Shown here: one piece after another, positions 24,960-62,574 of the stretch
How the letters are laid out: each line of letters begins with the position of its first letter
Position numbering within the stretch: position 1 is the first letter of the stretch
Source of the DNA: a virus
DNA length: 64,000 nt
Direction: 5' to 3' (one strand)
IMG/VR virus record: IMGVR_UViG_3300034683_000192
Coordinates: 135,881 to 199,880 of that record
Program-made: the position numbers and the translations under genes
Notes under the pieces: generated by a model
The model's input: only the letters and a program-made list of their open reading frames with translations
Databases searched by the model: none
Told to the model about the DNA's origin: nothing

Positions 24960-25037
24960 TGTGGCCTCCAAAAATACCTGAATGTATGGAAAATGAATCG
25001 CATATCATGTAAGTTAGACCCTTAGGAGGGTAAAATA

Positions 25038-25850
25038 ATGTCCAACGATGAAGGTATAATGTCAGCGCTCTTTCATCTCGGAAATGATAATCCGAGTAAT
25101 CCTGTCGAACAGACCGCAGATACCGATATCATTGAATTGACCAATCCAGAACCAGCTTCTTCGAAAATCACAGACTTTGAAATAAAGTTTGTGGGTATCT
25201 CCAAAGCATCTGGAGAAGAACCACTTGCACCAAATCCCAAAACGTTGAAAATATTCCAAAAATTCAATGATATCGTTATCGCAATAGATGCACTCCATGC
25301 GGAGTATCTTGAACTTTTCGAGAACGAAAACGTACCTACGTTTACTATGGATCGAGTACTCACAGAAATGCAGTTGTGTTTCGTAGAGTACCTCTCGAAT
25401 AGAAAGACGAGACTTCATCCAATCGTCAACATGCTCACCATGTGTGAGAGTTTTCTTATTCCGAGGTTTTACAAACTCGCATACAACGATATTTCCGAAC
25501 CAGAAACTCGGAAACAGCATGGAGATCGAGTTCAGGCGATTGCCGCCATCATGAAGATGCTGCAAGTCACATTCTTTGAAAAATTCGATACTCCTGGTGT
25601 AGGAATGATTTCGCGATATACCGCGATCAGTCTTCACAAATACAATGAAGATTTGATTCCTACCGATAAGAATACACTCATCGATGTTATCAATCTCTGT
25701 ATGTGTCAAATGATACAGGGAAAGATTCCGACTGTTGACGTTACCGCTGATGTTACAATTCCCGACATGCTGTTCTGGTGTCTTACTGCGCTTGCAGAAC
25801 AAGAAGTCAATATCTTAGAAGAAGTCACTACTTACCTGAATCGCAGATAG
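25038..25850 (+). CDS. Probable head protein (phiKZ gp98-like)
   Basis: 270 aa, divergent from the gp99-like gene; candidate prohead protease site SGE/E. Confidence 0.45.
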   Translation: MSNDEGIMSALFHLGNDNPSNPVEQTADTDIIELTNPEPASSKITDFEIKFVGISKASGEEPLAPNPKTLKIFQKFNDIVIAIDALHAEYLELFENENVPTFTMDRVLTEMQLCFVEYLSNRKTRLHPIVNMLTMCESFLIPRFYKLAYNDISEPETRKQHGDRVQAIAAIMKMLQVTFFEKFDTPGVGMISRYTAISLHKYNEDLIPTDKNTLIDVINLCMCQMIQGKIPTVDVTADVTIPDMLFWCLTALAEQEVNILEEVTTYLNRR

Positions 25851-25861
25851 GAGCAGCATAA

Positions 25862-26722
25862 ATGCCCACTCTCATATCAACAGTAATTCTGAGATCGAAA
25901 ACTCACGCTGAATGGGATGCAGAAAATCCAGTAATACTTACCGGATATGGTGCATATTCCACAGATACCAGAGAAGTCAAAATAGGTGATGGTACAACTC
26001 ACTGGAGAGAGCTTACTTCCAGTCCTTATGGAAGTGTGGTTGGTCCGCACGCCGAACTTCATCTTCCAAATGGAATTGACCCAGTCACAGATGTGCAACT
26101 TGAAGATGGTTCGAGTGCAAAAGATCTCGGGCAACTCAAAGCACGACTCGGTGAGTTTGTTCAGAATGCACAACTCAATACATTCACCAAATCTGGAGCA
26201 TTTCCGATATCCGCTGTAGGTATGGTGGATGGTCCTGTTACAAATGCTGGAGGAATTCTCATCGTATTCGCGGTAAGCGAATCATACGTTTACCAAGAGT
26301 ACATTGAACTTGGTGTCTCCAAATTCCGGTACTGGAGAGTGAGTCAGGGTAGTGTCTGGACTTCATGGAAAGAAGTTGCGACTACTGCAGATCTTGCGGC
26401 TATTCGTGATGAACTTCTTCAGCAATTCAGTGACTATGTCAGTACAAATACTTTCGTTTCCGCAGTGGACGCAATAAATGCAGAACTTACATCCATTCGT
26501 GAAAACGTGTCTGACGAAATCTCACTTGACAATTCTGCGATCTTTGCATCTGCAAAATCTGTCAAGCTTTTGAATGATCAACTTACGACCGCTCTTGCTG
26601 GAAAAGCAAATACCGCACATACACATACTGCGGATCAGGTTGGACTTCCATATATCCAATACTCTACACTCGATCCTACGGGTGGTGTCAATAACACGAT
26701 ACACATCAAGCTGATTGCTTAG
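25862..26722 (+). CDS. Tail fibre protein: Mtd_N-like N-terminus, pyocin-knob-like domain, fibre repeat, HTH repeat
   Basis: AEWDAENPVI...TDTREVKIGDGTTHW; YQEY...YWRV..GSVWTSWKEV; SDEISLDNSAIFASAKSVK; KANTAHTHTADQVG. Confidence 0.8.
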   Translation: MPTLISTVILRSKTHAEWDAENPVILTGYGAYSTDTREVKIGDGTTHWRELTSSPYGSVVGPHAELHLPNGIDPVTDVQLEDGSSAKDLGQLKARLGEFVQNAQLNTFTKSGAFPISAVGMVDGPVTNAGGILIVFAVSESYVYQEYIELGVSKFRYWRVSQGSVWTSWKEVATTADLAAIRDELLQQFSDYVSTNTFVSAVDAINAELTSIRENVSDEISLDNSAIFASAKSVKLLNDQLTTALAGKANTAHTHTADQVGLPYIQYSTLDPTGGVNNTIHIKLIA

Positions 26723-26734
26723 AAAGGAGTCCAC

Positions 26735-27697
26735 ATGTCAACCACTTGCCTGTTCTACAATCAGCACACAGCTCTTGCTGTATACGATTCAATAATACTC
26801 AATCTCGAACCTACTGATCGACCAGTACTGAGAAGTATTGGTTCCCAGTATGATTTTTTGAAGTTTGATGAAATAGATGGCGTAGTTTTATCTGGTGGGT
26901 GCAATGTGACCACAGGGGGAATCGACGTTCGTCTTACTGAACAAGATATTGAAGATGTTCGTACATTTCTCCAACAGAAGTACGATGAAGAAAAGTACTC
27001 AGTATACTTGTTCGACAAAAATCGAAGATTTCTTCATGTCGCACGAAAATATACTGTCACCGATCCGGAAATGTCAGTAATTCCACTAACCATACGTACC
27101 ACCAAGGTACCATCTGAGACAGATATCATAATTCCAGGTACAGATACATTTGATCGAGCATATCTCGCTATCGATGCCGATGGTACATACTCGATCCTTC
27201 CTGGAGTACTGAAAGAATCTCACAAGGTTCTGTGTACTGAAGAAGAATTTCTCGAAAACTGGGATATACCAGAGCATCAATGCAAGTACGACTTTGCGTC
27301 GTCCGCATGGATAGATATTCGTTCTCTTGAATCGTATATGAACGAACTCTCACTTGAAATTCGTACTCATTTTGAAGGGGTTCGCTGGAAAGCGTGGAAT
27401 AAATACGTTCCTCAGTACGACCAAGCTACGTGGGCGTCACAGTTGACGGAAGCTACTGCATGGCTCAAAGACAACACAGAAGAAACGCCATACATTGATC
27501 TCTTCTTGGCTGGACGAGATACTCCTCCTACAAAAGAAGAACTGTGTTTGGATATCGTGAATAACAACCACCAGTTCAAATTGGTGATGGCACCAATAAA
27601 CTCAGAACAGTGGAATTGGCTCGATAAGATCAAAGTAGCCAAAACCAATTCCGAACTTGACACCATTCGTGCACAATTCCGAAACTCTGTGAAGTGA
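26735..27697 (+). CDS. Tail fibre assembly/chaperone-like protein
   Basis: C-terminal TWASQLTEATAWL...TPYID...KEEL...I pattern of Tfa-like chaperones; paralog of 61633..62574. Confidence 0.65.
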   Translation: MSTTCLFYNQHTALAVYDSIILNLEPTDRPVLRSIGSQYDFLKFDEIDGVVLSGGCNVTTGGIDVRLTEQDIEDVRTFLQQKYDEEKYSVYLFDKNRRFLHVARKYTVTDPEMSVIPLTIRTTKVPSETDIIIPGTDTFDRAYLAIDADGTYSILPGVLKESHKVLCTEEEFLENWDIPEHQCKYDFASSAWIDIRSLESYMNELSLEIRTHFEGVRWKAWNKYVPQYDQATWASQLTEATAWLKDNTEETPYIDLFLAGRDTPPTKEELCLDIVNNNHQFKLVMAPINSEQWNWLDKIKVAKTNSELDTIRAQFRNSVK

Positions 27698-27701
27698 ACC
27701 G

Positions 27702-27731
27702 CATGTGCTTGCCCGAAAAGGCAAGCACATG
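27702..27731. terminator. Hairpin
   Basis: catgtgcttgcc...ggcaagcacatg. Confidence 0.7.
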
Positions 27732-27779
27732 TTCTACCAAATATAATGTATCATAATCATTAACCAGTGGAGATTTACC

Positions 27780-28286
27780 ATGTCCGTTCTCGTAAATATT
27801 GGCGGCACGTGGAAGACGGCTGACAAGATATTTGTGAAGATAAATGACAGTTGGAAAGAATCTGAAAATATATTTGTCAAAACTAACGACATCTGGACTC
27901 CAGCATATTCCTTTTCTTGGAGTATTGGTAGTTGGAGTACTTGTACAGTTTCGTGTGGTGGTGGTACGCAGTCTCGTACTGTCGAGTGCCGTAGAAATGA
28001 CAACAAACTCGTAAATGACGCATTATGTACTACCACAAAACCAATAACTTCACAATCTTGCAATACACAAGCATGTGCTGCTCCAGAGTGTAGATATTCT
28101 GGAATGGACCCTAACTATACTTGGTTTATTACGTCTGGTCAGTCGTGGCTTTATTGGGGAGGAGCTTCTCCATTTGCAAAAATAAGTCAAAGTGCTACAT
28201 CTTACACATATGGCGGATATTTGTACACTAAAGGTGTACTTATGCAATCTACTACTCTATTTCAAATATGCCGTACACCAGTGTAG
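27780..28286 (+). CDS. Thrombospondin type-1 (ADAMTS-type TSR) domain protein; putative tail-tip adhesin
   Basis: WSIGSWSTCTVSCGGGTQSRTVECRRNDNKLVNDALC...PITSQSCNTQAC with 6 Cys and the WxxxxW, CSxSCG and RxR pattern; N-terminal (VKxNxxW)x3. Confidence 0.88.
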   Translation: MSVLVNIGGTWKTADKIFVKINDSWKESENIFVKTNDIWTPAYSFSWSIGSWSTCTVSCGGGTQSRTVECRRNDNKLVNDALCTTTKPITSQSCNTQACAAPECRYSGMDPNYTWFITSGQSWLYWGGASPFAKISQSATSYTYGGYLYTKGVLMQSTTLFQICRTPV

Positions 28287-28336
28287 ATACATACAAGAGA
28301 TAATTACCATATAGACTTTATACTGGGAGATCATAA

Positions 28337-29818
28337 ATGCAAAATCACATTCCGAATAGATTATTCGCACAATCATTTCTGTATCGTGTGAGTTTTGAGA
28401 AATCCACCAATACAGAGTACATGACAAAACTCATCTCGGAGTTTCGTTCAAAAAATCGTGATGTCATCTTCGATATACATCTGAATGATTCACAAACTCA
28501 GAAAAGTGTGTTTGAGATTTTCAAAGAAGTGGGACCCACTGAAAAGATACGATTCACGCAGAACCGTTCTTTTGATCAGAATGACTGGGTCTATTCTGGT
28601 GAAGGTGAACACATTGGATTCATTGCTCCAGACGAGCATACACTGCATCACATCACGTTGATGTCGATTCATTCGATTGGTGAACGAGAACCAGTCATGC
28701 TCGTCTACAATGGGAATGAAATCTATCTTCCTGTCGAAAAGATTCCTCCGAACATTTTGAGTCATTCGATCAACTTGATCTCCGGAGAAAAGATATCTTC
28801 GGACGGACTTTGTTCAGTCATTCCTGTACAGTCAAAAATGATCGGACCGAAAGGTAGAATCATCACTTCTGCACAGACAAGAGCAGGTCTCGTGTGTCAC
28901 GCATTTCAGGGTGAACTTCCTAGTCTGAATGTTCCTGGAAATATCAACAAGATCAATTTCCTTGAACAGTGGTTGACTGGGTCGACATCCCTTACATCTA
29001 AAGAATTCATTGGGTACGAATTTGAGAAGGATACTTTCCGTATTCGTTCCATCGAATTCATTGCCAGAGTTGGTGCTCCAGATGCTCCTGCGCAACTTAC
29101 CCCAAGACCAAAGACGATGCAGATATTCGGAAAAAAAGGAACCACCTGGATTCCTATTTCTACCGAATTTACTCTTCAGCCAGAACACTGGCAATTCTTG
29201 AGTCCGGTTGCACTCAATTTCACACCAGACGAAGATGAAGATTTTGAGTACTCTGGAATTCGTGTCGACATCTCTGAGTGGTATCCAGGTGCACATGACA
29301 AGATGGAACTTGGTCTCATGCGAATGATTGTACGCGGTATCCCCAAATACAGTCAAAACATCAAAGTTCCATTCATCACCCCTCCAGATAGTCAAATGCT
29401 GTACACCCAGTACAATCCCTATCTTCTGGAATATCCCAAGAATATTGGGGAAGAGATCATTCCACCGAATATCTCGGAAAAGAAAATCGATCTGACAAAG
29501 TACCTTCCTGTACCGAAAAAGATCGAGTTCGCCAACACGAAGATAAACTATCTCGAAGATCTTATCAATGTCACTGAACTTGAGTCTGGTGATGTTATTG
29601 AGATTCGTGCCAAGAAAGCAACAACTTTCCAGATAGGCAGAGAAACTCCGAAAGATGATCATTCGCGACTTCTTGCGGATCGTTGTCTTCTGCTTGCTGG
29701 ATACAAGTTCTCTCTCGGAGGATCGTCATATTTCACGGTGTACGGTAAAGTGCAACGGAATACCACGATCAGATTGACCTTCGACGCAAAAGAAAAAGTA
29801 TTCGTTATCGAAAAATAA
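28337..29818 (+). CDS. Tail-associated protein with a discoidin/F5-8C-like beta-sandwich
   Basis: HAFQ...QWLT...FIGYEF...IRSI...PKTMQIFG...W...YSGIRV pattern; tail cassette context. Confidence 0.55.
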   Translation: MQNHIPNRLFAQSFLYRVSFEKSTNTEYMTKLISEFRSKNRDVIFDIHLNDSQTQKSVFEIFKEVGPTEKIRFTQNRSFDQNDWVYSGEGEHIGFIAPDEHTLHHITLMSIHSIGEREPVMLVYNGNEIYLPVEKIPPNILSHSINLISGEKISSDGLCSVIPVQSKMIGPKGRIITSAQTRAGLVCHAFQGELPSLNVPGNINKINFLEQWLTGSTSLTSKEFIGYEFEKDTFRIRSIEFIARVGAPDAPAQLTPRPKTMQIFGKKGTTWIPISTEFTLQPEHWQFLSPVALNFTPDEDEDFEYSGIRVDISEWYPGAHDKMELGLMRMIVRGIPKYSQNIKVPFITPPDSQMLYTQYNPYLLEYPKNIGEEIIPPNISEKKIDLTKYLPVPKKIEFANTKINYLEDLINVTELESGDVIEIRAKKATTFQIGRETPKDDHSRLLADRCLLLAGYKFSLGGSSYFTVYGKVQRNTTIRLTFDAKEKVFVIEK

Positions 29819-29824
29819 ACTACC

Positions 29825-29855
29825 TGACAAATGCTGGAAATTCCAGCATTTGTCA
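29825..29855. terminator. Hairpin
   Basis: tgacaaatgctggaa...ttccagcatttgtca. Confidence 0.7.
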
Positions 29856-29908
29856 AATATTGCGCAAATATTATGTTCATCTAAATACCAATAAACTAGG
29901 AGGACGTA

Positions 29909-30991
29909 ATGCCAATATCAATTGAACTTGCAGACGCCGGTAGCAAGTTGCGTAAAAATTACAATAAAGAAGTAATCGCCGGTACTGAATTTAAATTTCC
30001 TACTCCGATGGAAGATTTCTTTTCCACTGGTGTAACTACTACGGATGAATTTGAATCTACTGTAGATGGAGATCCAGTTGTTCTTTCTTTCAAAAATATG
30101 ACCATCAACGCTGGTCATATTGTTCGACCTACAAATAGATGTAAAGGGATGTTCATTTACGTTGAAGGAGATCTCATCGTAAATGGACAATTGACCATGA
30201 CTGCACGCGGTGCCGCTGGTGCAGGTATGTTTGTAGGGATCGATCCTGAAGTTGGAGTTTACATAAACTCTGAAGATACCTTTACCGAACACGATCTTGT
30301 TGTCATATCTCCCAATGGTGGAAATGGTGGATCACGTCGAAGTATTGGTAGTGGAAGTGAAACTTCATACGGTGCAGATGGATATCCCGGATATGTCGGT
30401 ACCAACGGCGCATGTGGAGGCGGTGGTGGAGGCGGCGTAGCCCATCAAAATAGTGGTTCAAGTACATCAGGATCTGGATCAGCTGGTACATCTTTCTCTG
30501 GTGGAGCCGGAGGTGGTGGAGCAGCTTCTGCTGGTGTTACCATTACTGCAGAAAATGGTGCACTCGATGGTGGGGCTGGCGGCAATGCCAGAGCAGCTAC
30601 AATAAATACCTCGACCAAACGTAGAGCGTGTGGTGGTGGCGCAGGAAATCCTGGTGGTGCATTTCAGCGAGCTGCTCCTGTCGAATATCTTGCACAGAAC
30701 GGTGGTACTGGTGCCGGAGGATTGATCATTCTCGTTGTTAAGGGGAACATTATCCTTGGTACCAGTGGAAAAATAAGTTCAGATGGTGTTGTAGGTGGTG
30801 CTGGACACAATGCTGGTGGAGGAGGATCTGGTGGCGGAGCCATCCACATCTTCCACAAAGGTACGATCAATGATCTCACCAAAATCACTGCTACCGGTGG
30901 TAATGGTGGTGGATCTACTGGTGGATCTATTCCTTATGCTCGAGGTGGTAAAGGCGGGAATGGATTCATTGGTCGATATATCCTGGGATAA
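29909..30991 (+). CDS. Glycine-rich tail fibre/spike protein
   Basis: Many GGGGG/GAGG runs; MTINAGH..RCKGMFIYVEGDLIVNG N-terminal pattern. Confidence 0.8.
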   Translation: MPISIELADAGSKLRKNYNKEVIAGTEFKFPTPMEDFFSTGVTTTDEFESTVDGDPVVLSFKNMTINAGHIVRPTNRCKGMFIYVEGDLIVNGQLTMTARGAAGAGMFVGIDPEVGVYINSEDTFTEHDLVVISPNGGNGGSRRSIGSGSETSYGADGYPGYVGTNGACGGGGGGGVAHQNSGSSTSGSGSAGTSFSGGAGGGGAASAGVTITAENGALDGGAGGNARAATINTSTKRRACGGGAGNPGGAFQRAAPVEYLAQNGGTGAGGLIILVVKGNIILGTSGKISSDGVVGGAGHNAGGGGSGGGAIHIFHKGTINDLTKITATGGNGGGSTGGSIPYARGGKGGNGFIGRYILG

Positions 30992-31009
30992 TGGTTCCAA
31001 GTATAAACG

Positions 31010-31037
31010 AGATGAGGACCCATTTGGGTCCTCATCT
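31010..31037 (+). terminator. Terminator after the Gly-rich gene
   Basis: agatgaggaccca...tgggtcctcatct, then T-rich. Confidence 0.7.
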
Positions 31038-31106
31038 TTGTACCTATTTTTTTATGTCAGGTACTCATTATGTGTCTATACGAGTAATACATCTAAGGAG
31101 CCTCAC

Positions 31107-61632: not shown

Positions 61633-62574
61633 TTACTTGAGCAGATTTTCGATCTCAGCATACGCTGTTTGTGCGTACGCTTCAATATCTTCTTTCGCCT
61701 GAAGCTTGTCTTCGAAGTTACGACGAGTCTGCTCGATCTCAAAGAATCTTGCAAGAATGTCGAACTTCTTTCGCATGATCGTTCGGTAGTCGTCGGTGAA
61801 CGAAATGAGATTGGTGTTGTTTTCCCAGTAATCGCAGCTGAGAATGAACTCCAACTGTGGCAACATGTATGCGCCATCAATATGAATCACATACTGAAGT
61901 CCGTACGATTCGAGTTTGTCCGCGATCAGACGATCGATACGGAAATGCAGTTGAGAATACACCGACTGGATGATTGTATCCAGTCCTCTGATGTCTACCC
62001 ACTCACCAAGTTCCGTATCATACCGAAGTGCGTCCTGAAGCAGGAGATCCTCGTTCGGCTGAGGAAATGCCGCCCATTCGGCTTCAGTCAGAAAAATCAC
62101 ACACCGGTCGCAGTAGCTACCTGGATCGAGAATGAGTGAACCATCGTCAGTGATGATTGCCGCGACTTTTTCCCATGTATCCGAGTCGGTATTGTATTTG
62201 GATACCGGAAGATCCGGTTTCTTCAGTACAGGAACAAATTGCTTTGTTCTTGCATCTGCGATAGAAAACTCACCAGAATACACATTGTATCTGTTGGGAT
62301 CATAGGTAGAAAATTCGATACCTACGAGTTCAGGGAGAATCTGCACGAATGCCTTCATGGTGTCATATTGGACATCGGACATCCGTTTGTCCCATTTGTC
62401 ACCATAGACACACTGTTCTCGATCGCGTTCGAACTGTATTGTCTTTCCGGGATGGAACGGAAGATCATTCACATCAAAACCAGACAGTACACATGTACCG
62501 AGTCCAGTGATGACGAGATGTGCATTTCCGCCAACTTCAAACTTGAACGCAACGACTGCTTCTTCGATTTTCAT
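61633..62574 (-). CDS. Tail fibre assembly-like protein, paralog of 26735..27697
   Basis: AIITDDG..I.PG...C...TE.E...YD....WVDIR.L shared with 26735. Confidence 0.65.
   Translation of the reverse strand: MKIEEAVVAFKFEVGGNAHLVITGLGTCVLSGFDVNDLPFHPGKTIQFERDREQCVYGDKWDKRMSDVQYDTMKAFVQILPELVGIEFSTYDPNRYNVYSGEFSIADARTKQFVPVLKKPDLPVSKYNTDSDTWEKVAAIITDDGSLILDPGSYCDRCVIFLTEAEWAAFPQPNEDLLLQDALRYDTELGEWVDIRGLDTIIQSVYSQLHFRIDRLIADKLESYGLQYVIHIDGAYMLPQLEFILSCDYWENNTNLISFTDDYRTIMRKKFDILARFFEIEQTRRNFEDKLQAKEDIEAYAQTAYAEIENLLK

What the first reader, a model, noticed from the sequence alone, without database searches (positions are those of the whole stretch)
27780..28286. Eukaryote-like ADAMTS thrombospondin-1 domain in a jumbo-phage tail-tip gene
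Seen: a complete TSR (WSIGSWSTCTVSCGGGTQSRTVEC...LC...P...QSCNTQAC) with six Cys, between a triple VKxNxxW N-terminus and an aromatic-rich C-terminal domain. It lies in a visibly AT-rich gene behind its own hairpin within the tail cassette. Known: TSRs are animal extracellular-matrix and apicomplexan adhesin modules that bind glycosaminoglycans and are disulfide-stabilised. Inference: the virion may display a TSR for binding mucosal glycans or host surface polysaccharide, analogous to Ig-like mucus adherence of T4 Hoc. Disulfide formation after lysis would be needed. I recall TSR-annotated proteins in Desulfovibrionaceae prophage tail regions (unverified), which may hint at the host.
Basis: partly seen in the sequence, partly recalled or inferred. 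Interest (0 to 1): 0.8.

Follow-up and report, generated by a model that had tools for sequence, protein, structure and literature searches.

The report
Thrombospondin repeat in phage fibre module
A small gene in the tail-fibre region of an uncultured jumbo phage really does encode a thrombospondin type-1 repeat, a domain best known from animals. It belongs to a phage protein family whose far end varies sharply between close relatives, as host-binding tips do. The same domain is scattered through uncultured bacteria and archaea, so it is not evidence of a recent capture from a eukaryote.

Summary
Observation confirmed. Window 27780-28286 (+) is a 168-aa ORF. Residues 47-99 match Pfam TSP1_ADAMTS at 55.6 bits (cut-off 23.8). 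The AlphaFold model (pLDDT 89.7) superposes on THSD7A, TSP-1, semaphorin-5A and ADAMTS13 repeats (best Z 7.5, rmsd 2.1 Å over 54 residues).

The protein has three parts:
- an N-terminal module of three Trp-bearing beta-hairpins;
- the repeat (TSR), with six invariant Cys;
- a 69-residue aromatic-rich beta domain clamped by two more conserved Cys.

The gene follows a tail-fibre gene and a gene whose model resembles DUF4376 fibre chaperones. The chaperone-like gene and the TSR gene are adjacent in five phage lineages. One is a lambda-like prophage in a Desulfovibrionaceae genome, where the TSR gene is the last tail gene before the endolysin.

In a close relative the upstream protein is 99% identical, while the TSR protein is 86/82/25% identical in its N/TSR/C parts.

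Best reading (about 0.55): a virion adhesin carried on the fibre, built like gp38, with the TSR as a disulfide-stapled stalk.

The "eukaryote-like" framing is weak. 146 prokaryote loci encode related repeats, and the tree is unresolved. Mucus binding is untested. No cultured phage in INPHARED has this domain, and I found no paper describing it in phages.

The parts
25862..26722 (+). Tail-fibre gene (286 aa) with an Mtd_N-type N-terminal anchor
   Evidence: Pfam Mtd_N at E 7.5e-6, 26.2 bits, just under the 26.3-bit cut-off. N-terminal residues 7-56 hit many PHROG tail fibre, tail spike and tail protein families. tblastn matches the N-terminus of a Gordonia phage tailspike/tail protein. A syntenic homologue lies in L002.
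26735..27697 (+). Chaperone-like gene (320 aa): N-terminal beta region plus C-terminal helical bundle, with DUF4376-like fold
   Evidence: phrog_2618 at E 2e-11. AF2 model pLDDT 90. Foldseek against BFVD hits DUF4376 phage proteins with probability 0.95-1.0 and E from 2.5e-3; the best row, an unnamed phage protein, has E 2.5e-5. There is no Pfam PF14301 match by sequence. It is adjacent to the TSR gene in L002, L003-5, L006, L015 and L105.
27701..27732 (+). 13-bp stem-loop immediately after the stop of the chaperone-like gene; possible terminator or RNA-stabilising hairpin
   Evidence: -23 kcal/mol, z -6.7, 0 of 200 shuffles fold as well. Sequence shown.
27769..27772 (+). GGAG ribosome-binding site, 7 nt before the ATG
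   Evidence: Read directly from the sequence.
27780..27911 (+). N-terminal module (aa 1-44): three 14-residue beta-hairpin repeats, each with a conserved Trp
   Evidence: AF2 strands 4-7/10-13, 18-21/24-27 and 32-35/38-41, pLDDT 81-90. W11, W25 and W39 are nearly invariant. phrog_25859 and phrog_36019 match residues 1-48. About 40-column matches at rmsd 1-2 Å to uncharacterised phage proteins in BFVD. The ESM Atlas shows the same module on phage proteins with GP38, Gly_rich_2 and ALK_LTK_GRD domains.
27912..28076 (+). Thrombospondin type-1 repeat (aa 45-99), ADAMTS-type, six invariant Cys
   Evidence: PF19030 at 55.6 bits against a 23.8 cut-off. PDB sequence hits to the ADAMTS13 and TSP-1 repeats. 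VIA-align Z 7.5, rmsd 2.1 Å over 54 residues to THSD7A 8oxr_A, followed by a long run of TSRs. Foldseek top hits are all TSRs.
28077..28286 (+). C-terminal aromatic-rich beta domain (aa 100-168) with conserved C103 and C164, then the stop codon; highly variable between relatives
   Evidence: AF2 pLDDT 82-94 with 7 strands. No clear solved fold; best Z 3.7. Only 25% identical in a relative whose upstream gene is 99% identical. C103, W126, G146 and C164 are conserved in the core family.
28337..29818 (+). Downstream 493-aa ORF with no hairpin separating it from the TSR gene; function unknown
   Evidence: No Pfam or PHROG hit. Homologue in syntenic L002 at 41% identity. No stable fold in the 28284-28340 spacer. 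Weak ESM Atlas lead to F5/8 type C (discoidin), score 0.86, not confirmed by Pfam.
29825..29855 (+). 14-bp stem-loop closing the putative two-gene unit
   Evidence: -21.7 kcal/mol, z -7.7. Also picked up by the terminator scan.

Best explanation
The gene encodes a small adhesin that rides on the virion's tail fibre, built on the same plan as gp38 of T2-like phages.

Proposed mechanism:
- The conserved N-terminal three-hairpin module docks the protein onto a fibre or baseplate partner. The likely partner is the product of the fibre gene two genes upstream.
- The TSR forms a short, rigid stalk stapled by three disulfides.
- The highly variable, Cys-clamped C-terminal beta domain makes the specific contact with the host surface.
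- The DUF4376-like protein encoded between fibre and adhesin serves as the assembly chaperone or cap of this module.

Shown here:
- the domain architecture and the TSR fold;
- the invariant Cys;
- the linkage of the TSR gene to the chaperone-like gene in five phage lineages, with a fibre-like gene next to them in four;
- its position as the last tail gene before the lysis genes in a prophage;
- the divergence of the C domain between near-identical relatives;
- the N module shared with other phage proteins that carry receptor-binding-type C-termini;
- the lack of a signal-peptide-like N-terminus.

Inferred: presence in the virion, the docking partner, the oligomeric state, what the C domain or the TSR binds, and that the eight Cys become oxidised only after lysis.
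For: TSR identity:
-, as set out in the observation check.

Tail-fibre context:
- The fibre gene at 25862 is followed by the chaperone-like gene at 26735 and then the TSR gene.
- DUF4376 proteins are experimentally supported fibre chaperones in Alteromonas phages V22 and A5 (PMC7289586, PMC10579305).
- The chaperone-like gene is adjacent to a TSR gene in L002 (a 221-kb syntenic jumbo contig), L003-5, L006, L015 and L105.
- In L105 the order is central fibre J, tail proteins, a 1189-aa tail fibre, the phrog_2618 protein, the TSR protein, endolysin, and further on an integrase.

Diversification of the kind seen in receptor-binding proteins:
- P0204, the upstream protein of a relative, is 318/320 identical to the window's.
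- P0003, the TSR protein recorded on a contig of the same length (16,461 b), is 86/82/25% identical in its N/TSR/C parts.
- L006 carries three TSR paralogues in tandem.

N module as a general adaptor:
- Ralstonia phage RSF1 ORF061 and ORF062 have the same Trp repeats followed by unrelated, Cys-free C domains.
- BFVD and ESM Atlas neighbours of residues 1-46 carry GP38 (PF05268), Gly_rich_2 or ALK_LTK_GRD domains.
- A second phage TSR family joins TSP_1 to Gly_rich_2.
- Gp38 adhesins are monomers with a conserved N-terminal attachment domain and variable distal loops (PMC12032242).
Against: - There is no direct evidence that the protein is in the virion: no proteomics and no cultured relative.
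- The protein would be made in the reducing cytoplasm, yet it needs four disulfides. No Erv1 or thioredoxin gene was found in the 73%-complete genome record.
- The N-module link to gp38-type proteins rests on matches between short predicted structures (TM 0.57-0.80 over 42-46 residues), which are leads only. The protein has no PF05268 match.
- In L007 and L008 the family member is not next to a recognisable fibre or chaperone gene.
- The chaperone-like gene does not match PF14301 by sequence.
Confidence: 0.55

Rival explanations
1. One reading: a Hoc-like virion decoration. The TSR itself binds glycosaminoglycan-like or mucin glycans of an animal mucosa, or host exopolysaccharide. This would hold the phage where hosts are, rather than determine infection.
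For: - Animal TSRs bind sulfated glycans; semaphorin-5A repeats solved with sulfate and sucrose octasulfate are among the structural matches.
- The TSR is the best-conserved part of the family, at 51-82% identity, as expected for a part with a constant ligand or partner.
- Family members occur in Mailhella and other Desulfovibrionaceae genomes. Mailhella is a gut genus by my own knowledge.
- Jumbo phages are known to carry animal-type adhesion domains on their fibres (PMC7824862).
Against: - No binding data exist.
- The sample's environment is unknown.
- The gene sits in the tail-fibre/chaperone module, not with head genes.
- The strong divergence is in the C domain. That points to a strain-specific target and does not fit a constant mucosal ligand.
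- The TSR has only one Arg (R66) where TSP-1-type repeats have the Arg ladder, as read from the sequence.
- Related TSR architectures occur in viral contigs and MAGs of diverse phyla, several from water samples by their record titles.
Confidence: 0.12
2. An assembly factor or transient cap that is absent from the mature virion. The protein would act with the DUF4376-like protein to fold or cap the fibre tip and would be released before or at host contact.
For: - It is tightly linked to the chaperone-like gene in five lineages.
- In L006 the TSR paralogues come before the chaperone-like gene rather than after it.
- Alteromonas phage fibre chaperones behave as transient caps (PMC10579305).
Against: - An assembly factor working in the cytoplasm has no obvious use for eight invariant Cys in an extracellular-type, disulfide-dependent fold.
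- Strong divergence of the C domain while the upstream protein stays at 99% is typical of receptor-binding parts, not of chaperones.
- The N module also occurs on proteins with adhesin-type domains.
Confidence: 0.13
3. A non-structural phage protein released at lysis. It would act outside the virion, for example by binding host or competitor surfaces or debris, and its fibre neighbourhood would be incidental.
For: - L007 and L008 carry family members away from recognisable fibre genes.
- Cellular TSR proteins in CPR bacteria, DPANN archaea, Bdellovibrionota and Myxococcota look like secreted surface proteins with signal-peptide-like N-termini.
- The window gene is separated from the fibre/chaperone-like pair by a strong hairpin.
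Against: - It has no signal peptide.
- It has a conserved phage-type N module shared with fibre-associated proteins.
- Its position in the tail module is conserved from a jumbo phage to a lambda-like prophage.
Confidence: 0.1
4. An artefact: eukaryotic DNA mis-assembled into a viral contig, or a chance Cys-rich ORF.
For: Only the domain's reputation as belonging to animals and apicomplexans (PMC3417536).
Against: - A bacterial-type ribosome-binding site and GC close to the neighbouring genes.
- Homologues in the same syntenic position on independent phage contigs and in a prophage.
- HMM E-value 6.6e-15.
- 14 family members with invariant Cys.
Confidence: 0.01

Closest known systems
Thrombospondin type-1 repeat, ADAMTS-type (Pfam PF19030; solved examples: THSD7A 8oxr, ADAMTS13 3ghm, TSP-1 1lsl, semaphorin-5A 8ckg)
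   Same: - Full-length HMM match.
- Cys spacing C-x3-C-x10-C-x12-C-x10-C-x4-C.
- The W...W and Q-x-R core motif.
- The CxxSCxxG stretch.
- An elongated three-strand fold, Z 7.5 and rmsd 2.1 Å.
   Different: - A single repeat in a 168-aa phage protein with no signal peptide, made in a bacterial cytoplasm.
- Flanked by a phage hairpin module and a new small beta domain.
- No POFUT2-type glycosylation is expected in a bacterial host (my knowledge).
- The ligand is unknown.
Gp38 tail-fibre adhesins of T2/T6/S16-like Straboviridae (Pfam PF05268)
   Same: - A small protein encoded right after the fibre and chaperone genes.
- A conserved N-terminal part and a variable distal part.
- Its N module has the same predicted structure as the N-termini of an ESM Atlas cluster of phage proteins that all carry PF05268.
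   Different: - No PF05268 match and no glycine-rich motifs.
- The middle domain is a TSR, not a beta-helix.
- The distal domain is a Cys-clamped aromatic beta domain, not a polyglycine sandwich.
- Attachment to a fibre tip is not shown.
DUF4376 tail-fibre chaperones (Alteromonas phage V22 gp27, A5 gp9), for the neighbouring gene 26735-27697
   Same: - Encoded immediately after a tail-fibre gene.
- A C-terminal helical domain whose model matches DUF4376 phage proteins in BFVD.
   Different: - No PF14301 sequence match; a true DUF4376 gene lies elsewhere in the genome.
- Larger, at 320 aa, with an extra N-terminal beta region.
- Its activity is untested.
Animal-type adhesion domains on jumbo-phage fibres (discoidin, laminin G3, SPRY, C1q), surveyed by Iyer et al. 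2021 (PMC7824862), and the Ig-like Hoc decoration of T4
   Same: The general theme: an extracellular adhesion domain known from animals sitting in a phage fibre or decoration protein.
   Different: - TSP1 is not among the domains listed in that survey.
- The TSR depends on disulfides, unlike those lectin and Ig folds (my knowledge).
- The gene is in a tail-fibre module, not a head-decoration module.
Ralstonia phage RSF1 ORF061/ORF062 and similar small proteins of phiKZ-like jumbo phages
   Same: - The same N-terminal Trp-hairpin repeats.
- Similar length (167 aa).
- Tandem copies that follow a virion structural gene.
   Different: - No TSR and no Cys.
- Unrelated C-terminal domains.
- Sequence similarity is confined to about 45 residues, with E values from 3e-6 upward in a small pairwise search.

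Membership tests
TSP1_ADAMTS / thrombospondin type-1 repeat | Profile HMM score above Pfam's gathering cut-off over the whole domain | tested here: met
   55.6 bits against 23.8, profile positions 1-55 of 55. 57.9 bits in the six-frame genome scan.
TSP1_ADAMTS / thrombospondin type-1 repeat | Six conserved Cys with TSR spacing | tested here: met
   C55, C59, C70, C83, C94 and C99 are invariant in 14 family members. The spacing aligns with the ADAMTS13 repeat.
TSP1_ADAMTS / thrombospondin type-1 repeat | Elongated three-strand TSR fold | tested here: met
   AF2 model pLDDT 88-95 across the domain. Z 7.5, rmsd 2.1 Å over 54 residues to 8oxr_A, then more than 15 further TSR entries. Foldseek top hits are all TSRs.
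TSP1_ADAMTS / thrombospondin type-1 repeat | Stacked Trp/Arg layers in the core | tested here: inconclusive
   W47, W52, Q64 and R66 are present, and W52, Q64 and R66 are invariant. That is the ADAMTS-type reduced ladder. I could not inspect side-chain stacking in the model.
TSP1_ADAMTS / thrombospondin type-1 repeat | Disulfides formed, protein extracellular | not testable with these tools
   No signal peptide. No phage Erv1 or thioredoxin found. This needs biochemistry.
Gp38-type tail-fibre adhesin | Match to Pfam GP38 (PF05268), glycine-rich motifs | tested here: not met
   The Pfam scan at E up to 0.1 returned only TSP1 families. The sequence has no glycine-rich motifs.
Gp38-type tail-fibre adhesin | Conserved N-terminal attachment part and variable distal part | tested here: inconclusive
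   Close relatives are 86-93% identical in the N part and 25-41% in the C part. The N module resembles the N-termini of a GP38-domain cluster, TM 0.66 over 46 residues; this is a lead only.
Gp38-type tail-fibre adhesin | Bound to the distal tip of the fibre in the virion | not testable with these tools
   Needs virion proteomics, cryo-EM or a pull-down.
DUF4376 tail-fibre chaperone (gene 26735-27697) | Match to Pfam PF14301 | tested here: not met
   No Pfam hit at E up to 0.1. The genome scan at E up to 1 finds PF14301 only at G000:C1:87399-87698.
DUF4376 tail-fibre chaperone (gene 26735-27697) | Fold resembles DUF4376 proteins; encoded directly after a fibre gene | tested here: met
   Foldseek against BFVD: several DUF4376 phage proteins at probability 0.95-1.0 and E from 2.5e-3; best row overall E 2.5e-5. 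The gene starts 13 nt after the fibre gene ends.
Hoc-like head decoration | Ig-like domains plus a capsid-binding domain, encoded with head genes | tested here: not met
   No Ig-type Pfam hit. The neighbours are a fibre gene and a chaperone-like gene.

The most novel reading that the evidence does not exclude
The TSR may be an old prokaryotic and viral surface-adhesion module. On this reading it circulates on phage fibre cassettes and in the surface proteins of bacteria and archaea that live attached to, or prey on, other cells (CPR, DPANN, Bdellovibrionota, Myxococcota). The animal and apicomplexan repeats would then descend from this pool, not the reverse. The phage family would also be a case of a disulfide-dependent extracellular fold built into a virion that assembles in the cytoplasm, including that of a nucleus-forming jumbo phage. 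That would imply an unknown route to oxidative folding.
Probability: 0.15. Interest if true: 0.8.

Novelty: new variant of a known kind. Interest (0 to 1): 0.55.

Why it matters
The thrombospondin repeat is treated in the literature as an adhesion module of animals, passed on to apicomplexan parasites (PMC3417536). A 2021 survey of animal-type adhesion domains on jumbo-phage fibres does not list it (PMC7824862).

This work shows a coherent phage family that places the repeat between a fibre-docking module and a highly variable tip. The family is linked to a fibre chaperone-like gene in phages as different as a phiKZ-like jumbo phage and a lambda-like Desulfovibrionaceae prophage. A second phage architecture uses the spondin-type repeat.

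If the reading is right, three things follow:
- A compact new scaffold for receptor-binding proteins, useful for predicting or re-targeting host range in laboratory phage-bacterium systems.
- A concrete hook for asking where the TSR came from.
- A testable puzzle: how does a protein with four likely disulfides mature in a cytoplasmically assembled virion?

Tried and rejected
- **Cultured phages.** Megablast of 25000-31000 and tblastn of the protein against 50,697 INPHARED records gave no TSR relative, even at E 10. Only weak N-module matches appeared. The chaperone-like protein also had no match there.
I could not fetch the metagenome contigs holding P0002-P0004 or P0204. The claim that P0003 and P0204 share a contig rests on equal contig lengths.
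- **Phage-encoded disulfide machinery.** No Evr1_Alr match was found, though the control genomes also gave none, so that search says little. No thioredoxin match was found either, and there 13 of 14 controls matched. The genome record is 73% complete.
- **Fold of the C-terminal domain.** Nothing convincing among 48,161 PDB representatives: best Z 3.7 to a Diels-Alderase and about 3.2 to Rhs-core hairpins. I do not claim a new fold, because the domain was not modelled alone.
- **Fold of the N module against PDB.** It was hardly tested, because the TSR filled the hit list.
- **Fold of the 26735 protein against PDB.** Only generic helical bundles, Z 7.1 or less.
- **Direction of transfer between eukaryotes and prokaryotes.** A 130-row tree on 55 columns had only 8 of 120 branches well supported. 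It cannot decide.
- **Downstream ORFs.** The glycine-rich ORF 29909 does not match Gly_rich_2 by sequence, and ORF 28337 does not match F5/8 type C.
- **Contamination by eukaryotic DNA.** Rejected on synteny.
- **Host of the window's phage.** Not determined. The Desulfovibrionaceae elements share only the two-gene module with it.
Full report
**1. The observation**

Window 27780-28286 (+) is an ATG-started ORF of 168 aa. GGAG lies 7 nt upstream of the start.

Pfam places TSP1_ADAMTS (PF19030) on residues 47-99, covering profile positions 1-55 of 55. E is 6.6e-15 and the score 55.6 bits against a cut-off of 23.8. The sister models TSP_1 and TSP1_spondin score below their cut-offs. A six-frame scan of the whole 199,880-base viral record finds this one site only. 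The same search matches none of 14 control genomes.

The upstream hairpin is real: 27701-27732, 13 bp, -23 kcal/mol, z -6.7. Equally strong hairpins follow the next two genes, at 29825-29855 and 31009-31038. So this is the local punctuation style, not a private feature of the gene. No hairpin follows the TSR gene itself, so the TSR gene and the 493-aa ORF 28337-29818 lie together between two hairpins.

The gene's GC is 0.404. That is below the window mean (0.454) but close to its neighbours at 0.41-0.44, so "visibly AT-rich" is a mild overstatement.

**2. The genome**

The window is the last 64 kb of an IMG/VR contig of 199,880 bases that CheckV rates 73% complete. It encodes:
- a phiKZ-type RNA polymerase beta subunit (phrog_2987);
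- a UvsX-like recombinase;
- virion structural proteins (phrog_3013, with phrog_3289 and phrog_3245 nearby);
- several fibre-like proteins.

Earlier first-stage notes of this scan call it a divergent nucleus-forming (Chimalliviridae-like) phage. I checked only the RNA polymerase hit.

The phage is far from cultured phages. The best tblastn identities are 21-24%, to jumbo phages of Ralstonia, Xanthomonas, Serratia and Erwinia.

**3. Structure**

AlphaFold2 on a 14-sequence family alignment gives mean pLDDT 89.7. The model shows:
- three beta-hairpins (residues 4-41);
- the TSR (residues 45-99);
- a seven-strand beta domain (residues 103-167).

Against the PDB, every top Foldseek hit is a TSR: THSD7A, TSP-1, semaphorin-5A, ADAMTS13, properdin and BAI1. 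An exhaustive alignment to 48,161 representatives gives THSD7A 8oxr_A at Z 7.5, rmsd 2.1 Å over 54 residues. More than fifteen further TSR entries follow at Z 2.5-4.7. A sequence search of the PDB independently finds the ADAMTS13 repeat (E 3.4e-4) and the TSP-1 repeats.

The C-terminal domain has no convincing solved counterpart; the best Z is 3.7.

The motif C55-T-V-S-C59-G-G-G fits the animal O-fucosylation consensus CxxS/TCxxG. I take this as a retained family feature with no implication for a bacterial host (my knowledge).

**4. The family**

Searches of metagenome proteins, IMG/VR and 185,579 species genomes recover full-length relatives. In the 14-row alignment the following are invariant or nearly so: W11, W25, W39, W52, all six TSR Cys, G60-G62, Q64, R66, K87, P88, N95 and T96. 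The core family also keeps C103, W126, G146 and C164, within a terminal C-R-x-P-V. Eight conserved Cys argue for four disulfides. The pairing C55-C94, C59-C99, C70-C83 plus C103-C164 is my inference from TSR precedent.

Identity to the window's protein differs sharply by part:

| Relative | N module | TSR | C domain |
|---|---|---|---|
| P0002 | 93% | 82% | 41% |
| P0003 | 86% | 82% | 25% |
| distant members | 30-43% | 51-71% | 14-41% |

The upstream protein of one relative (P0204) is 318/320 identical to the window's. P0204 and P0003 are each recorded on a single Logan contig of 16,461 bases. They are therefore very probably on the same contig.

A near copy of P0003 sits on a 1,647-base contig. 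So does an upstream protein that is only 80% identical to the window's.

A nearly unchanged neighbour beside a replaced C domain is the pattern of receptor-binding tips.

**5. Gene context**

L002 is a 221-kb viral contig that is syntenic with the window from 20.4 to 39 kb. The shared order includes the fibre gene, the 320-aa gene, the TSR gene and the 28337 homologue.

The 320-aa gene (phrog_2618) is adjacent to a TSR gene in four further lineages:
- L003-5;
- L006, which has three TSR paralogues, two of them before the 320-aa gene;
- L015, a contig of a Mailhella MAG;
- L105.

L105 comes from a second genome of the same GTDB family as the Mailhella MAG. It is a clear prophage. Its gene order is central tail fibre J, tail proteins, a 1189-aa tail fibre, the phrog_2618 protein, the TSR protein, endolysin, and further on an integrase.

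It does not assign a host to the window's phage. Only the two-gene module is shared.

**6. The neighbouring 320-aa protein**

Its model (pLDDT 90) has a beta-rich N-terminal part and a C-terminal helical bundle. In BFVD it matches many phage proteins of about 200 aa. Several are labelled DUF4376 and a few "tail fibre assembly" or "tail assembly chaperone". The best row, an unnamed phage protein, has E 2.5e-5 and probability 1.0. The DUF4376 rows start at E 2.5e-3, with probabilities of 0.95-1.0 for the better ones.

DUF4376 proteins are the experimentally supported fibre chaperones of Alteromonas phages V22 (gp27) and A5 (gp9), described as transient caps (PMC7289586, PMC10579305).

By sequence the protein does not match PF14301. 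A true DUF4376 gene lies elsewhere in the genome. I therefore call it chaperone-like, not a member of the family.

**7. The N-terminal module**

Residues 1-48 hit two PHROG families of unknown function. The model's N-terminus matches about 40 residues of uncharacterised phage proteins at rmsd 1-2 Å. These include proteins of cyanophages MED4-213 and S-SKS1, Roseobacter phage CRP-5 and Vibrio phage JSF10.

tblastn finds the same about-45-residue module, weakly, in hypothetical proteins of phiKZ-like phages RSL2/RSF1, FLC6/8, Moabite, Totoro and FBKp24. In RSF1 two tandem 167-aa genes (ORF061, ORF062) carry the Trp repeats and then unrelated, Cys-free C domains. They follow a gene annotated as a virion structural protein.

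In the ESM Atlas the structural neighbours of residues 1-46 are:
- a TSP1 cluster whose few taxon records are mostly Thermodesulfobacteriota;
- phage clusters carrying Gly_rich_2;
- phage clusters carrying GP38 (PF05268 in 100% of members, TM 0.66);
- phage clusters carrying ALK_LTK_GRD domains.

These are leads, not proofs. They agree that the module is a general N-terminal adaptor placed in front of small adhesin-type domains.

Gp38 adhesins are monomers whose conserved N-terminal domain attaches to the gp37 tip and whose distal loops vary (PMC12032242). The present protein works on the same plan but is not a gp38 family member, because it has no PF05268 match.

**8. How eukaryote-like is the TSR?**

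The pattern scan of species genomes found 146 loci encoding relatives. Of the 78 loci kept, the counts are:

| Group | Loci |
|---|---|
| CPR/Patescibacteria lineages | 28 |
| Pseudomonadota | 17 |
| Bdellovibrionota | 8 |
| Myxococcota | 5 |
| DPANN archaea | 5 |

. Most of these are long proteins with signal-peptide-like N-termini and tandem TSRs. NCBI already names some of them "thrombospondin type-1 domain-containing protein".

Prevalence is low. Four of 201 sampled genomes of the Paceibacterota MAG's phylum have the domain. In the Desulfovibrionaceae sample, 2 of 201 genomes hold a full-length family member.

An exhaustive profile search counts 3,661 representative proteins at E up to 0.001. 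The list is headed by giant multi-TSR proteins.

The nearest TSR sequences to the window's repeat are:
- a metagenomic protein at 68% identity;
- a Paceibacterota protein at 65%;
- a metagenomic protein (JGI/ENA) at 64%;
- a protist ADAM-like transcript at 61%;
- fish ADAMTSL3 at 43-46%.

A 130-row tree on 55 columns is poorly resolved, with 8 of 120 branches well supported. It puts the window's TSR with other members of its phage family, inside a mixed bush of prokaryote, phage and fish ADAMTSL3 repeats. The second phage architecture falls in the spondin-type bush.

The data therefore do not support a recent capture from an animal. They also cannot give the direction of ancient transfer.

**9. 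A second phage architecture**

Viral contigs L010-L013 and the MAG contig L064 encode proteins that start "MALQSSGQIKLSEI...". These have a TSP_1/spondin-type repeat at about residue 65. In two of the three L010 copies a Gly_rich_2 domain follows. L010 and L011 each carry three tandem copies. Phage fibre-like proteins have thus recruited TSRs at least twice.

**10. Mechanism and its weak points**

The best reading is a fibre-borne adhesin:
- the N module docks the protein;
- the TSR is a rigid stalk of about 5 nm (my knowledge of TSR dimensions);
- the C domain binds the receptor;
- the DUF4376-like protein assists assembly.

The main difficulty is oxidative folding. There is no signal peptide, and neither Erv1 nor thioredoxin was found in the record. 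Disulfides would have to form after lysis or by an unknown route.

Nothing here shows the protein in virions. It fits the variable C domain poorly.

**11. Novelty**

Full-text searches gave the following:
- Thrombospondin with bacteriophage, phage or tail fibre found no paper describing a TSR in a phage.
- The one hit in a jumbo-phage survey is a reference title. That survey lists discoidin, laminin G3, SPRY and C1q domains on fibres, but not TSP1.
- A 2012 review treats TSP1 as an animal domain transferred to apicomplexans.

Automatic annotation does already label such proteins. The finding is therefore a new variant of a known kind, the modular phage adhesin. It has moderate interest for the evolution of extracellular adhesion domains and for phage receptor-binding design.

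Noticed in passing
L010:9836-13453, L011:4848-8416, L012, L013, L064: A second phage TSR architecture. The N-terminus starts 'MALQSSGQIKLSEI...', a TSP_1/spondin-type repeat sits at about residue 65, and in two of the three L010 copies a Gly_rich_2 (PF21722) domain follows. L010 and L011 each carry three tandem paralogues.
   Followed up: partly
window 28337-29818 (+): A 493-aa ORF with no hairpin between it and the TSR gene; the pair is bounded by hairpins. It has no Pfam or PHROG hit. The ESM Atlas points weakly to F5/8 type C (discoidin) carbohydrate-binding domains (score 0.86, a lead only). The Pfam PF00754 scan was negative.
   Followed up: partly
window 29909-30991 (+): A glycine-rich 360-aa protein. 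Only its first 125 residues are conserved in the syntenic contig (L002:1379-2443, 52% identity), so it looks like another fibre or adhesin with a swapped distal part. It has no Gly_rich_2 match.
   Followed up: partly
window 61633-62574 (-): A paralogue of the chaperone-like gene 26735-27697, 17% identical in the alignment, with BLAST hits to the L003, L006 and L015 homologues. It lies far from the fibre genes.
   Followed up: no
window 27701-27732, 29825-29855, 31009-31038: A series of strong 13-14 bp stem-loops (-21.7 to -26.6 kcal/mol, z -6.7 to -7.7) directly after consecutive plus-strand genes. None has a clear U-tract.
   Followed up: partly
L014:1791-10450 (IMGVR_UViG_3300043414_000623, 139 kb): Three consecutive large Cys-rich proteins (1176, 789 and 885 aa) with one to four TSR motifs each, on a viral contig.
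   Followed up: no
L037, L039, L040: Nearly identical or identical TSR proteins sit on contigs binned into MAGs of three different phyla (Patescibacteria group, Gammaproteobacteria, Clostridiaceae). This suggests mis-binning or a mobile or viral element.
   Followed up: no
G000:C1:87399-87698 (-), outside the window (L094): A true DUF4376 (PF14301) gene at 40.5 bits in the same phage genome, separate from the chaperone-like gene next to the TSR gene.
   Followed up: no
L093:7028-8089 (Ralstonia phage RSF1 ORF061, ORF062): Two tandem 167-aa genes of a cultured phiKZ-like phage carry the same N-terminal Trp-hairpin module but Cys-free C domains. They could serve as a tractable model for testing what the module docks to.
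   Followed up: partly
G342:C6:157840-160137 (L097-L104): A 992-aa open frame with at least seven TSR matches in a genome of the same family as the Mailhella MAG. This is a cellular-type multi-TSR protein, unlike the phage family.
   Followed up: no
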